Shown here piece after piece: positions 24,001 through 27,000 of a DNA stretch of 64,000 nucleotides. Within the stretch, counting starts at the first letter, position 1. Each line of letters opens with the position of its first letter. Position numbers: made by a program. Source of the DNA: Nitrosopumilus sp. GTDB taxonomy: Archaea; Thermoproteota; Nitrososphaeria; Nitrososphaerales; Nitrosopumilaceae. The DNA lies in assembly GCA_965205425.1 (NCBI GenBank), contig CBDBGZ010000009.1, forward strand, positions 1,120,001 through 1,184,000, read 5' to 3'.

Positions 24001-27000
24001 CAATTAACCTTGGTGGAAAAATCCATTTAGAAAAAGCAGCAAGAACATTACCAAGAAGTATGTATGAACCAGAGCAATTCCCAGGGCTAATTCATAGAAT
24101 GTTAGATCCTAAAACAGTTATTCTATTATTTGCATCAGGTAAATTGGTGTGTACAGGGGCTAAAAAAGAATCAGATGTTTATCGTTCAGTTCACAATTTG
24201 CATGCATTATTAGAAGAAAAAACTCTAATGATATATGATCAATAATTTTTAGAAGATTTTAAAAATTGACTAAAGATATTTTTGAAGATGAAAAAATTAA
24301 GCTAACTCCTAAAACAGGTTTTGATTTGATTGGCATAGATTATTTTGCAGAGCCTGGAAACCAATTATATTTAATAGAACATTTTGAAATGTATCAAGAT
24401 GCTTTGAATGCAAAAAAAGATAGAAAAAATCAAGACGAATATTTTGTGCTCTATAAAGGAACTGGAAATGAATTTTTCTGCAGATAGATTAGAAAAATCA
24501 TAAAACTTTACTAAATTTTACAATCTCTCTTATCATTCAGTTAAAAATTAAAAAAACCATGCCTAGCGAAACAAGTGATTTGATTGATACATTATATGAA
24601 AAAGAAAATCCAGTTCAATCTAAACAAATTTCTAAACAAATTATTCGTAAAAGTCCAAAAGCAAAATATCAGATTTTTGATGAAATAGAGTTTACACGTG
24701 GAAGAGAAGTTCTTGGAGATCTAATTGTTCATGGAATGATAGCTTCGGGTGGAACTGACATAGATTGGCTGATTGAACACAAAGGGAGTTTCATCGTTCT
24801 AGAATTCAACAGTACTTGGGAAAGTAACTACCTGACATCTTCCAAATAGTATTGAGATTTTATTCTCCTAAAGAAATCAACAATAATAACTATAACCATA
24901 TGTGCCAAAATCAGCTAGGAAATTAGATGGTACTTGCATTCGTATCAAGAAAGTAAGAAATGCAAACAAACACACTACCCTTCCTGAAAAAAAATATTTG
25001 ATGTTTGTAGGATTGGATGTTCACAAGAACTCTGTACAGGTGGCAGCAGTAGATGAGATTGGCAAATTGTTATTTAACAAAAAGATTTCCAGTGATTTTT
25101 CTGCTATTAGCAAAATTACATCCAAAATTCCAAAGAACGCAAAATATGTTTTAGAGTCATCATCTGTCTGGTATGGCCTTTATAGACACATGACAGACAA
25201 ATTACATCTTGATGTTATACTATCTAATCCATACAACACAAAGATAATAGCATCATCACTCAAAAAGACTGATAAAATTGATGCGTACCATCTTGCAAAT
25301 TTGCTACGAGGAGGATACATTGCAGAATCATTCGTGCCAGATCACACAATTGTGCAATACAGACAGCTTGTAAGACATCGACACAAGATTGTGCGCATCA
25401 TTGTAAAGATGAAGAATTCCATACATGGTATTACACTACAGGAGGGAATCCATATCAAAGCAACACCATTTTCCTCAGAACACATACGTGCACTTGGAAA
25501 ATTGGAGAGTTATAGAATAGATTCGTACCTACAAAGCATAAAATTTCACAAAAAGGAGGTTGCAAAAATAGATTCCATGATACGTCGCATGGTAAATGAT
25601 AATCCTGATGTGTGTATTTTGACATCAATACCTGGAGTTGGACCATACACTGCATTGAGCATATTCTCAGAAATTGCAGAGATTAGTAGATTTTCAAATT
25701 CTCACAAGTTATGTGCATATGCAGGGATTGTTCCATCGGTGAGAAATTCTGCAGATACAATACATCACGGAAGAATTACAAAGAGAGGAAGCACCATGCT
25801 AAGATGGTTGCTAGTGGAGGCAATTCATGCACATGTTAGATACGCACCAGATAGCGACATTACAAAATTTTACAATCGCATTAAGAAAAAGAGAGGAACC
25901 TCAAAGGCAGCAGTTGCTGCTGCATCAAAGTTATTGCGTGTCATATATTGGATGCTAAAAGAGAGGAGAGAATTTGTGCAAAATTACAGTTAGGACTGCA
26001 AGTCGCGTTAGAGTTTTTGAGGGACAAGGCCTCGTCTGATAACTGCGAACAATCCTAACTAGGATGAAGATAGCATTGAGAGAATAGTCTCGTATGGATA
26101 CATGTCCGCATCTTTTGATTGAAACCATTCTCTAGCGAAAGCCATGCCCTGATGTATGGAAAGAGAAGAAATGTATAAAAACAATTCACATGGATAACTC
26201 TTGTTCCCTTCTCTGGCATCTTTCTTGCATATGCCTTTGCAGGGGTCTCAAGATTATCCCAGTCAAGTGACATGTGTGGCTTTATGTGATTGTACCAGTG
26301 GACCAGCTCATCAATGGTGCCAAACCATTTCTGCTTTCTCTGAATCTCGCCGTGAAATCTTTCGAGCTTGCCATTGGTTTGAGGATGGTTCACTCTTGCC
26401 ATGATATGCTTTATCTCTAATTTTACCAGTTCTTGCTCAAACTGGGATGCTCCTTTTCTCTTGTATTCTGATTGGTTTGCATAAAACTGGGAGCCATGAT
26501 CAGTTAGAATTGATGCAGGCCTACCGTGCTTTGCAATTGCCTCATGTAATACTACAAGTGCGTTATCTGTTGTTGCCTCTGCAAACACTCCATGAGAAAC
26601 GATAAACCTTGATGCGTCATCCTGGTAGCATAAGAACCATCTGCCATCATCTAGCTTCTTCCAGTCAGTATGCCACATGGAGTTTGAATATGTCCTTTCA
26701 TATCGAACCCACTTTCGTCTTCTCCTCTTCTTTGGCTGAGCTTCTGCCAACCCTTCATCTCTCATAATTTTGTGTATGGTATTGTGAGGTATGTGTGTTC
26801 CAGTAGTATCAATTATTTTCTCCAAGAATACTGCAGAACACCTGAACTTTTCAAATGTAGACTGGACAGTCTGCACCATCTGCTCTGTGATTATTCCCTT
26901 TGGCCTTCCAGACTTGCCTAGGATTGGAACTGCACCAGTACGGCGATACCGTGAGTAGAGTTTCTGCACCCACCGAACAGATATCTTCATGGATGAGGCA

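What a model noticed while it worked through the whole genome (the two positions that open the first line are those of the whole stretch)
24886..26196. IS110-family elements carry a 3' two-loop (bridge-RNA-like) non-coding region whose loops match element end and insertio [...]
The 12 long copies (>=330 aa) of the IS110-family (DEDD) transposase gene fall into three element subtypes (e.g. C2:53258-54616; C9:245988-247335; C9:1144886-1146196). All have only ~10 nt before the start codon but a conserved 203-240 nt non-coding 3' region that folds into two tandem stem-loops of the same design (5' strand - UGAGRG..CYCUCG hairpin - 3' strand). The 3' strand of loop 2 repeats the element's right end (AUAGAUAUGUG vs ..CACATAGATATGTG in subtypes 1-2; AUGGAUA vs ..CACATGGATA in subtype 3: loop and end change together). 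The 3' strand of loop 1 repeats the left target flank (GAUAACU vs ..ATAACT| in 3 of 5 subtype-3 copies with a readable flank, a fourth has it one repeat furth [...]
Evidence so far: Copies, flanks and 3' regions printed in calls 106,108,109,110; RNAalifold of five 3' regions gives the two stem-loops, 35 pairs, 6 with compensatory changes; Rfam 15 has no family matching the region. NCBIfam names the protein 'IS110 family RNA-guided transposase' (ncbifam.tsv, call 5).
(Added by a program. Inside this text positions count along the whole contig: contig position 1,120,001 is position 1 of the stretch shown here. "Call 12" and the like, gene names such as g00115 and contig names such as C1 are that model's own, and its searches are not shown. 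The text may have been shortened before it was handed on; [...] marks where a part breaks off. The agent that wrote the report below was given it as the finding of a first reader that could run no searches.)

Follow-up and report, generated by a model that had tools for sequence, protein, structure and literature searches.

The report
Archaeal IS1111-type bridge RNA element
A jumping gene in an ammonia-oxidising archaeon carries, just after its transposase gene, a folded guide RNA whose loops spell out the element's own ends and the DNA at its insertion sites; bacteria were shown to use this mechanism in 2024, so this is a well-supported new example and not a new kind of system.

Summary
Window 24888-26195 is a 1308-bp IS110-family element. 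It has a 363-aa DEDD transposase gene and a 3' non-coding region with two internal-loop modules.

Evidence:
- A covariance model built here finds the same module after related transposase genes in 53 places. 94% of cells pair and 18 of 27 pairs show compensatory changes.
- The loop strands track the DNA. The reverse complement of the loop-1 5' strand matches the right flank: 7.0 of 10 against 4.66 by chance, 0 of 20000 permutations.
- The loop-1 3' strand matches the left flank. The loop-2 3' strand matches the right end and the loop-2 5' strand matches the left end.

- Of "ATAACT", only "AT" is target. "AAC" is the start of the element, as empty sites show.

This is the IS1111-type bridge/seekRNA described in 2024. 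IS5075 shows the same grammar. It is a new archaeal member of a known kind. The scan already noted the same thing in another ammonia oxidiser.

No RNA data exist. This copy's own matches are modest, and its two flanks come from different loci.

The parts
24887..24887 (+). Shared T at the left crossover. It is the last base of the left flank.
   Evidence: All 47 distinct left flanks end in T directly before the left end. Every right end also ends in T. Empty sites show a single T shared between the two junctions.
24888..24904 (+). Left end, AACTAT-AACCAT-ATGTG. AACTAT is the terminal extension that loop 2 reads. AACCAT is a second, internal extension inherited from an s2-type element. ATGTG is the left subterminal inverted repeat and holds the GTG start codon.
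   Evidence: Three paralogues of the left flank run ..CAACAATAAT|AATTTCAAAG without the element. The left ends of relatives are AAC(C/T)ATATGTG. The reverse complement of the loop-2 5' strand (ATGCTAT) goes with AACTAT ends, and GTACCAT goes with AACCAT ends.
24902..25993 (+). Transposase gene, 363 aa: DEDD/RuvC-like N-terminal domain plus a Transposase_20 C-terminal domain.
   Evidence: Pfam PF01548 (8.9e-22) and PF02371 (1e-22). NCBIfam NF033542 'IS110 family RNA-guided transposase', 243.9 bits against a cut-off of 140. Invariant D39, E85, D124, D127 and S283 in an alignment of 5 relatives. The C-terminal domain matches the solved ISCro4 and IS621 transposases.
25988..26111 (+). Bridge/seekRNA module as matched by covariance model R1. 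The outer stem is 25989-25995 with 26053-26059, and it encloses the stop codon.
   Evidence: R1 match of 115.5 bits. The outer stem has 5 of 7 pairs with compensatory changes.
26008..26017 (+). Loop 1 (target loop), 5' strand UUAGAGUUUU. Its reverse complement AAAACTCTAA reads the right flank.
   Evidence: The right flank here is (AT)AACTCTTG, a 7 of 10 match. Family-wide the cognate score is 7.00 against 4.66, 0 of 20000 permutations. This block has four versions among near-identical copies in this genome. 6 of its 10 columns vary, against 81 of 1301 elsewhere.
26018..26034 (+). Hairpin 1, UGAGGG-ACAAGG-CCUCG.
   Evidence: 5-bp stem with compensatory changes.
26035..26043 (+). Loop 1, 3' strand UCUGAU-AAC. 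The first 6 nt have the same sense as the left flank. AAC equals the first 3 nt of the left end.
   Evidence: Left-flank test: 4.38 of 6 against 2.39, 0 of 20000. For this copy the score is 3 of 6. The last 3 nt equal the first 3 nt of the left end in 22 of 28 distinct pairs.
26067..26076 (+). Loop 2 (donor loop), 5' strand AAGAUAGCAU. Its reverse complement ..GCTAT.. reads the start of the left end (A-ACTAT).
   Evidence: ATGCTAT goes with AACTAT ends and (G/C)(T/A)ACCAT with AACCAT ends across families.
26077..26092 (+). Hairpin 2, UGAGAG-AAUA-GUCUCG.
   Evidence: 3 of 5 pairs show compensatory changes. The closing U-G pair is present in 52 of 52 sequences.
26093..26102 (+). Loop 2, 3' strand UAUGGAUACA. 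It has the same sense as the right end, ATGGAT.
   Evidence: Five right-end classes covary with this strand.
26113..26116 (+). U-run after loop 2. This is a possible 3' end of the RNA (inferred).
   Evidence: Seen in the sequence. Similar T3-T4 runs appear in most relatives by eye in alignment A2. It was not tested.
26168..26181 (+). GAAAT-G-TATAAAAA, a BRE/TATA-like motif facing outward towards the right end (inferred promoter).
   Evidence: It is conserved at a fixed distance, 6-12 nt before CACAT, in 26 dereplicated right ends, including one G+C-rich element.
26187..26195 (+). Right end, CACATGGAT: right inverted repeat CACAT, a 3-nt extension GGA, then the shared T.
   Evidence: Copy-to-copy similarity ends here. 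Beyond it lies an internal site of an IS481-like element, whose intact form ..CATCAAT|AACTCTTG.. occurs 17 times in the genome.

Best explanation
This is an IS1111-group (IS110-family) insertion sequence of a Nitrosopumilus genome. It very probably moves by RNA-guided recombination.

The RNA. The roughly 125 nt after the transposase stop codon form a bridge/seekRNA with two internal loops.
- In the first (target) loop, the 5' strand pairs with the top strand of the right half of the target. The 3' strand pairs with the bottom strand of the left half and then runs on into the first bases of the element's left end.
- In the second (donor) loop, the 3' strand matches the right end and the 5' strand matches the start of the left end.
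- Held by the DEDD/serine recombinase, the RNA would bring the abutted ends of an excised circle next to a matching target. Strands would be exchanged at a single shared T.

What is shown and what is inferred. The structure and all four guide-to-DNA correspondences are shown by comparison. Transcription, the circle form and the exact cut positions are inferred from the experimentally studied bacterial relatives.

The promoter (also inferred). A conserved outward-facing BRE/TATA-like motif in the right end would start transcription about 9 nt past the end. In a circle that position is at the GTG start codon in the left end. It would be an archaeal version of the junction promoter.
For: Protein. 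It carries DEDD_Tnp_IS110 plus Transposase_20 and matches NCBIfam 'IS110 family RNA-guided transposase'. The catalytic D, E, D, D and S positions are invariant in 5 relatives.

RNA structure. 53 matches to model R1 lie downstream of related transposase genes in 62 loci. 94.0% of cells pair, 18 of 27 pairs are compensatory, and 0 of 500 shuffles reach that. Many conserved G-U pairs (for example U-G in 52 of 52) make the fold specific to the transposase-sense strand.

Target guides.
- Right flank: 52 distinct guide/flank pairs in 37 guide groups score 7.00 of 10 against a null of 4.66 +/- 0.18, 0 of 20000. The best cases reach 10 of 10 (L082) and 9 of 10 (L053, L016, s1, L052).
- Left flank: 47 pairs in 24 groups score 4.38 of 6 against 2.39, 0 of 20000.

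Donor guides. Five right-end classes and two left-end classes covary with loop 2.

Empty sites fix the ends.
- In G061 a repeat reads ..TTTGCT|GATTCATACC. That 10-mer occurs 98 times, and 28 of the 30 places read are unoccupied.
- In this genome the empty forms are CAACAATAAT|AATTTCAAAG (3 paralogues) and CATCAAT|AACTCTTG (17 intact sites).

Variation within the genome. Copies that are 95-99% identical carry four different versions of the loop-1 5' strand, and their right flanks differ.

Known relatives.
- IS5075 has an antisense 9-mer to its right flank, then a hairpin. About 95 nt further on it has a same-sense 8-mer for its right end.
- Durrant 2024 (PMC11208160, passages read) places the bridge RNA of IS1111 elements in the right end.
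- Siddiquee 2024 (PMC11187229, passages read) reports the same order, with the top-strand match 5' of the bottom-strand match.

Promoter motif. It is conserved in 26 dereplicated right ends.
Against: There is no expression evidence. No RNA run holds the stretch, so the RNA, its ends and its processing are inferred.

The single-sequence fold is no better than shuffles (z = 0.24).

This copy's own matches are modest: 7 of 10 on the right with a 2-nt offset, and 3 of 6 on the left. Its two flanks come from different loci, so it is not a simple insertion. No reciprocal junction was found.

The register between the right-flank guide and the junction varies by 0-2 nt between families, so the crossover is not resolved.

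Some copies fit a sister copy's guide better than their own. Examples are C9:484929 and L084.

Related families are not independent, which overstates the permutation tests. The pair counts come from a model-fitted alignment.

The window s3 element is a chimera. Its inverted repeat sits 12 nt from the left tip instead of 6.
Confidence: 0.88

Rival explanations
1. The same sequence acts as single-stranded DNA and not as RNA. Subterminal DNA hairpins with guide bases would pair with the target, as in IS200/IS605 elements.
For: Compensatory changes and guide-to-flank matches would arise equally for a folded DNA strand. No RNA has been seen.
Against: The protein is a DEDD/serine IS110-family recombinase and not an HUH enzyme. 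Conserved G-U pairs are frequent and strand-specific. In the closest studied relatives the guide is an RNA that co-purifies with the transposase (PMC11187229, passages read).
Confidence: 0.04
2. The 3' region is only a structured 3' UTR or terminator, or a set of protein-binding repeats. Under this reading the transposase protein chooses the targets, and the loop-to-flank matches are by-products of a shared sequence preference.
For: Left flanks are A+T-rich and all end in T, so some agreement comes cheaply. This copy's own matches are weak.
Against: Cognate guides beat non-cognate guides taken from the same A+T-rich elements (0 of 20000 on both sides). Near-identical proteins with different loop-1 5' strands sit at different targets. 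Four separate strands each track a different piece of DNA.
Confidence: 0.05
3. This copy is a dead relic. The family works by RNA guidance, but this chimeric, rearranged copy can no longer move.
For: Its flanks come from two different loci. The left end carries an extra 6-nt unit, and the inverted repeats match over only about 5 bp.
Against: The reading frame is intact with all catalytic residues. The RNA module scores as high as any (115.5 bits). The same chimeric type sits at 5 or more different sites in this genome, so it moved after it was formed.
Confidence: 0.2

Closest known systems
IS1111-family elements with a 3' seekRNA / right-end bridge RNA (ISEc11, ISKpn4, ISPa11, ISPst6; also IS4321/IS5075)
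   Same: - The non-coding region lies downstream of the transposase gene.
- There are subterminal inverted repeats, with a longer left extension and a 3-nt right extension.
- There is no target duplication beyond one shared base.
- The guide complementary to the top strand lies 5' of the guide complementary to the bottom strand (PMC11187229, passages read).
- Targets are often other repeats or other IS.
- IS5075, read here in locus L140, shows the antisense right-flank 9-mer, a hairpin, and further on a same-sense right-end 8-mer in that order. Its right end also ends in CATAGAT-T.
   Different: - The hosts are archaea (Nitrosopumilaceae, with weaker model matches in Methanomassiliicoccales, Archaeoglobi and Thermoplasmata loci).
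- Protein identity to IS5075 is only 23%.
- The inverted repeats are short, 5-9 bp.
- Both loops carry a near-identical UGAGG/CCUCG hairpin.
- The presumed junction promoter is a complete BRE/TATA-like motif inside the right end, not a split -35/-10.
- Nothing has been tested at the bench.
IS621 bridge RNA (IS110 group; Durrant 2024, Hiraizumi 2024)
   Same: It has two internal loops, one for the target and one for the donor, each reading both strands. It has a DEDD plus serine recombinase, and the C-terminal domain matches the solved IS621 chain (E = 3.8e-07). The 3' strands here run on into the partner DNA. That resembles the handshake guides of IS621; this comparison is recalled and not checked in the paper.
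   Different: The IS621 RNA lies in the left end, upstream of the gene, with the strand order reversed. IS621 has a CT core dinucleotide, whereas here only a single T is shared. IS621 has almost no inverted repeats.
IS200/IS605 transposon-directed target selection
   Same: Bases inside the element pair with the target to choose the site.
   Different: There the guide is DNA and the enzyme is an HUH transposase acting on single strands. Here the protein family is different.

Membership tests
IS110 family (DEDD transposases) | Transposase with a DEDD_Tnp_IS110 (RuvC-like) domain and a Transposase_20 domain | tested here: met
   PF01548 at 8.9e-22 and PF02371 at 1e-22. NF033542 at 243.9 bits against a cut-off of 140.
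IS110 family (DEDD transposases) | Catalytic D-E-D-D residues and the conserved serine in a G..P....S(G/A) motif | tested here: met
   D39, E85, D124, D127, G275, P278 and S283 are invariant in the alignment of 5 relatives. Which residues are catalytic is taken from the literature and was not tested.
IS1111 group | The long non-coding region lies downstream of the transposase gene, with a very short left end | tested here: met
   There are 202 nt between the stop codon (25993) and the right end (26195). The start codon lies 14 nt from the left tip.
IS1111 group | Subterminal inverted repeats, 7-17 bp (Durrant 2024) or usually 11-13 bp (Siddiquee 2024) | tested here: inconclusive
   ATGTG/CACAT is always present. 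The repeat extends to 8-9 bp in s1 and in the x/L063 type, but is only about 5 bp in the chimeric window copy. That is at or below the low end of the stated range.
IS1111 group | Asymmetric terminal extensions beyond the repeats, 6-7 bp on the left and 3 bp on the right, with no target duplication | tested here: met
   The canonical left end is (T)AACCAT/AACTAT before ATGTG. The right end is GGA/AGA after CACAT, then the shared T. Empty sites show only that T on both sides. The window copy has a doubled left extension.
IS1111 group | The transposase clusters with named IS1111 members and not with IS110-group members | not tested
   No labelled reference set was at hand. tblastn gives 23% identity to IS4321/IS5075 and up to 33% to unnamed IS110-family genes.
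Bridge RNA / seekRNA | A structured RNA with two internal loops, conserved by covariation | tested here: met
   27 pairs, 94% paired, 18 compensatory, 0 of 500 shuffles. RNAalifold on a plain MAFFT alignment recovers 3 of the 5 helices.
Bridge RNA / seekRNA | Loop strands match both strands of the target and both ends of the donor | tested here: met
   for the target (0 of 20000 each). for the donor.
Bridge RNA / seekRNA | A core shared by donor and target at the crossover | tested here: inconclusive
   A single T is shared at both junctions in all cases read. The register of the right guide varies by 0-2 nt, so a 2-nt core is neither shown nor excluded.
Bridge RNA / seekRNA | The RNA is expressed and bound by the transposase, and is needed for circle formation and insertion | not testable with these tools
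   No RNA run holds the stretch. There are no bench data.

The most novel reading that the evidence does not exclude
These archaeal elements add features not described for the bacterial systems.
1. A complete outward-facing BRE/TATA promoter in the right end would fire across the circle junction (or into a downstream sister copy). It would produce a leaderless transposase mRNA that starts at the GTG inside the left inverted repeat, with the guide RNA as its 3' tail.
2. Both 3' loop strands read the product junctions (left flank plus left end, right end plus right flank).
3. The chimeric s3 type has a left inverted repeat displaced by 6 or 12 nt, yet it has spread to at least 5 sites. That would mean a few terminal bases read by the RNA define the donor, and not the inverted repeat.
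Probability: 0.45. Interest if true: 0.5.

Novelty: new member of a known kind. Interest (0 to 1): 0.35.

Why it matters
It extends RNA-guided IS1111-type recombination, with comparative evidence, to ammonia-oxidising archaea. It also yields a covariance model and about 40 natural guide/target pairs, including near-identical copies in one genome that differ mainly in one guide strand. These form a natural reprogramming series that could inform bridge-recombinase engineering. They may also explain why these elements pile up inside other IS and repeats in IS-rich Nitrosopumilus genomes. The mechanism itself is already known.

Tried and rejected
- Rfam 15 at E up to 10 gave no family on the 3' region. 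It gave only two sub-threshold chance hits inside the gene.
- The single-sequence RNA fold was no better than shuffles.
- RNAalifold on MAFFT alignment A2 found the outer stem, hairpin 2 and the loop-2 stem. It missed the loop-1 stem and hairpin 1 because the columns were out of register. This was resolved with a hand-given structure and a covariance model.
- My fixed-length parse of the loop-1 closing stem was out of register for about a quarter of the sequences.
- RNA holders: no RNA holder listed.
- The first pattern search for an uninterrupted target in G061 found nothing, because I had wrongly counted AA of the left end as target. The second search found it.
- A search for the reciprocal junctions that would explain the window copy's mismatched flanks found none.
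- The bacterial-type promoter/terminator scan found nothing above shuffles and does not cover archaeal promoters.
- A 'handshake' between the tail of the loop-2 3' strand and the first 4 nt of the right flank gave only a weak signal: 2.27 against 1.85, with 102 of 20000 permutations as high.
- The idea that ATAACT or CT is a duplicated core was rejected by the empty sites.
- The loop-1 5' strand is enriched in variable columns, but it is not the most variable 10-column window of the element. A stretch of the transposase gene has 8 of 10.
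Full report
What is at the coordinates

The window comes from an A+T-rich (33% G+C) genome of 2.2 Mb. Its closest public relatives are titled Nitrosopumilus.

blastn of window 24800-26300 against the genome shows copy-to-copy similarity from 24886 to 26196/26197. Inside lies one long ORF, 24902-25993, of 363 aa. It carries DEDD_Tnp_IS110 and Transposase_20 and scores 243.9 bits on NCBIfam 'IS110 family RNA-guided transposase'.

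tblastn finds 12 long copies:
- six of the window type (s3);
- three s2, which are 99% identical to s3 over the first 1090 bp and then diverge;
- three s1, at 56% aa identity.

There are also two hybrid 'x' copies lying directly downstream of s2 copies, and several truncated ones.

True ends

Three paralogues of the left flank lack the element and read ..CAACAATAAT|AATTTCAAAG. The occupied form reads ..CAACAATAAT|AACTATAACCATATGTG.

The right flank is an internal site of an IS481-like element (for the family). Its intact form ..CATCAAT|AACTCTTG.. occurs 17 times.

A related multi-copy family in genome G061 gives a clean case. The 10-mer GATTCATACC occurs 98 times there. At 28 of the 30 places read it is unoccupied, mostly in the form ..TTTGCT|GATTCATACC. 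Occupied sites read ..TTTGCT|AACTATATGTG....CACATAGAT|GATTCATACC.

So the element begins with AAC and ends with ..GA-T, and one T is common to both junctions. All 47 distinct left flanks end in T. The window element is therefore 24888-26195.

Its geometry is a 6-nt extension (7 nt with the T) before the ATGTG repeat on the left, and 3 nt after CACAT on the right. That is the geometry Siddiquee et al. give for IS1111 members (PMC11187229, passages read).

The two flanks of the window copy come from different loci, so this copy has been rearranged since it inserted. No reciprocal junction was found.

The RNA module

Iterated nhmmer found 74 instances, 57 of them distinct, of the region after the stop codon in this genome and in related loci.

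I aligned 31 representatives, gave a five-helix structure by hand, and built covariance model R1. R1 matches 53 places in 62 loci. These include weaker matches after transposase genes that are 37-39% identical, in Methanomassiliicoccales, Archaeoglobi and Thermoplasmata records.

On that alignment:
- 94.0% of cells pair, against 82.3% in shuffles;
- 18 of 27 pairs change on both sides;
- 0 of 500 shuffles reach the observed values;
- sliding the partners gives 36-46%.

The alignment is fitted to the model, which favours the structure. Plain MAFFT plus RNAalifold still recovers three helices, with 10 compensatory pairs. Frequent conserved G-U pairs make the fold specific to the transposase-sense strand. 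The single sequence folds no better than shuffles, and Rfam has nothing.

In this genome R1 finds 17 matches: 13 intact modules at over 100 bits, one interrupted copy at 61 bits, and 3 fragments. In an even sample of the phylum it finds 4 of 151 genomes, G000 included, all in one family.

What the loops read

I took the 10 nt on either side of each hairpin from every instance, and the junctions of the same copies.

- Loop 1, 5' strand. Its reverse complement matches the DNA directly after the right end. There are 69 instances with a readable right junction, out of 74; four lacked one and L071 was mis-parsed. They give 52 distinct guide/flank pairs in 37 guide groups. With one representative per group, cognate pairs score 7.00 of 10 against 4.66 +/- 0.18 for permuted guides, 0 of 20000. 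Over all 52 pairs, cognate pairs average 7.27 and non-cognate pairs 4.64. The best cases are 10 of 10 (L082) and 9 of 10 (L053, L016, L052, s1). The worst are 4 of 10 (L047, L069, L004). An offset of 0-3 positions was allowed for cognate and control alike.
- Loop 1, 3' strand. Its first 6 nt match the 6 nt before the left end in a fixed register: 47 pairs in 24 groups, 4.38 of 6 against 2.39, 0 of 20000. The result still holds without the invariant T. Rows without a recognisable left end were dropped, as were L016, L081 and the interrupted C5 copy. The next 3 nt (AAC, rarely AAA or AAT) equal the first 3 nt of the left end in 22 of 28 distinct pairs. So they read the element and not the target.
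- Loop 2, 3' strand. It equals the right end in five covarying classes, and 10 of 14 distinct pairs are identical.
- Loop 2, 5' strand. Reverse-complemented, it reads ..GCTAT in families whose left end is AACTAT and ..ACCAT in families whose left end is AACCAT.
- A possible further match between the tail of the loop-2 3' strand and the first bases of the right flank is weak: 102 of 20000 permutations are as high.

This genome in particular

The s3 copies are 95-99% identical, yet they carry four versions of the loop-1 5' strand: AGAGUUUU, GUAAUUUA, AAAAUGCU and GUAAUUAU. 6 of its 10 columns vary against 81 of 1301 elsewhere (Fisher p = 1.2e-05). One stretch of the gene is even more variable.

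The window copy's guide, AAAACTCTAA when reverse-complemented, fits AACTCT in the IS481-like site. That site lies 14 codons before the stop of that element's transposase gene.

Not every copy fits its own guide. C9:484929 and L084 fit a sister's guide better. That is expected if the RNA can act in trans, as shown for ISEc11 (PMC11187229, passages read), but I cannot show it here.

The s2 guides read AAC(T/C)AT|ATGTGAAT. That is the left end of the sister x-type element, cut between its extension and its inverted repeat. This explains why every s2 copy sits directly in front of an x copy.

The s3 type is then a chimera. It combines the x-type extension AACTAT, the s2 left end and 5' gene, and the x-type 3' gene, RNA and right end. 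Its loop 2 still matches the outermost AACTAT. It occupies at least five different sites.

Promoter (inferred)

In 26 dereplicated right ends, a motif AAAT-G-TTTAAAAA lies 6-12 nt before CACAT, also in a G+C-rich element. It looks like an archaeal BRE plus TATA box facing outward.

With the usual spacing of about 26 nt (recalled), transcription would start about 9 nt beyond the right end. In a circle with the canonical left end AACCATATGTG, that position is the GTG start codon. This would be the archaeal counterpart of the junction promoter described for both families (PMC11187229, passages read).

The guide RNA begins at the stop codon, so it would be the 3' tail of that transcript. A U-run follows loop 2 (26113-26116). 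None of this is tested.

Comparison with what is known

Durrant et al. (PMC11208160, passages read) predicted bridge RNAs in the right end of 93% of IS1111 elements. Siddiquee et al. (PMC11187229 and its preprint, passages and two sections read) showed seekRNAs from the 3' region of four IS1111 members, with the top-strand match 5' of the bottom-strand match. They state that the family is abundant in bacteria and archaea.

I read one named member, IS5075, on a plasmid locus. Its 3' region holds, in order:
- a 9-mer antisense to the right flank;
- a hairpin;
- further on, an 8-mer in the sense of the right end.

Its right end also ends in CATAGAT-T.

The archaeal elements therefore work like IS1111 elements and fit the group's features. 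The exceptions are that the inverted repeats are short and that I did not build a labelled tree.

My searches for Nitrosopumilus with IS110, and for seekRNA with archaea, found no paper that describes these RNAs in ammonia oxidisers. A 2026 survey of archaeal IS mentions IS110 only in passing (PMC13343696, passages read). Vaysset et al. count 662 archaeal IS110 recombinases without describing their RNAs (10.1101/2024.06.21.599552, passages read).

Verdict

This is a new archaeal member of a known kind. It is interesting as a clean natural series of guide/target pairs, but the mechanism is not new.

Noticed in passing
window 26196-27431 (minus strand) and about 20 other places in the genome: An IS481-family element with about 20 copies (NF033577, 191 bits, below its cut-off of 224). 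In the window copy the IS1111-type insertion lies 14 codons before the transposase stop. The ORF therefore reads on into the inserted element and ends with about 40 foreign residues.
   Followed up: partly
G000 C9:245988-248660 and C8:46854-49520; also L036, L037, L039, L042 and L088 in a related genome: Every s2-type element sits directly in front of an x-type element. Its guides match the left end of that element, cut between the 6-nt extension and the inverted repeat. So this IS specifically targets the end of its sister IS and creates tandem pairs.
   Followed up: partly
G000 C5:229379-230344: An element of about 960 bp with ends GGCCTTGTAGAAACC... sits inside the left end of an s3 copy, flanked by an 8-bp duplication CTATAACC.
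   Followed up: no
G000 C5:227109-228190; fragments at C9:75607-75735 and C5:226923-227051: Another insertion, beginning TAGTTTAGGCATATAAATTTT and ending ..CTATAG, splits the loop-2 5' strand of one s3 copy. Two orphan right-end fragments start at the same point. The guide RNA region is itself a recurrent insertion site.
   Followed up: no
G061 (genome of loci L051-L060), 98 places: A repeat ending ..ACATGTTCTTTGCT GATTCATACC occurs about 98 times (control 1). It is the target of that genome's IS1111-type family. The nature of the repeat is unknown.
   Followed up: partly
window 26133-26144: A small hairpin, UAGC-GAAA-GCCA, lies between loop 2 and the promoter-like motif. It is conserved in relatives with compensatory changes by eye (AGC/GCU against AGU/ACU). 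An A-run follows it. Its function is unknown.
   Followed up: no
G000 C7:83026-83050: A 20-nt right-end remnant (..AAAAACAATTCACATGGAT) sits at the same internal site of a second IS481-like copy. The flank differs by one base (AATTCTTG instead of AACTCTTG).
   Followed up: no
L095, L096, L098 (Methanomassiliicoccales); L092, L093 (Archaeoglobi); L107 (Thermoplasmata): Model R1 gives weak but significant matches (26-40 bits) downstream of transposase genes that are 37-39% identical. The RNA design therefore reaches beyond Nitrososphaeria.
   Followed up: no
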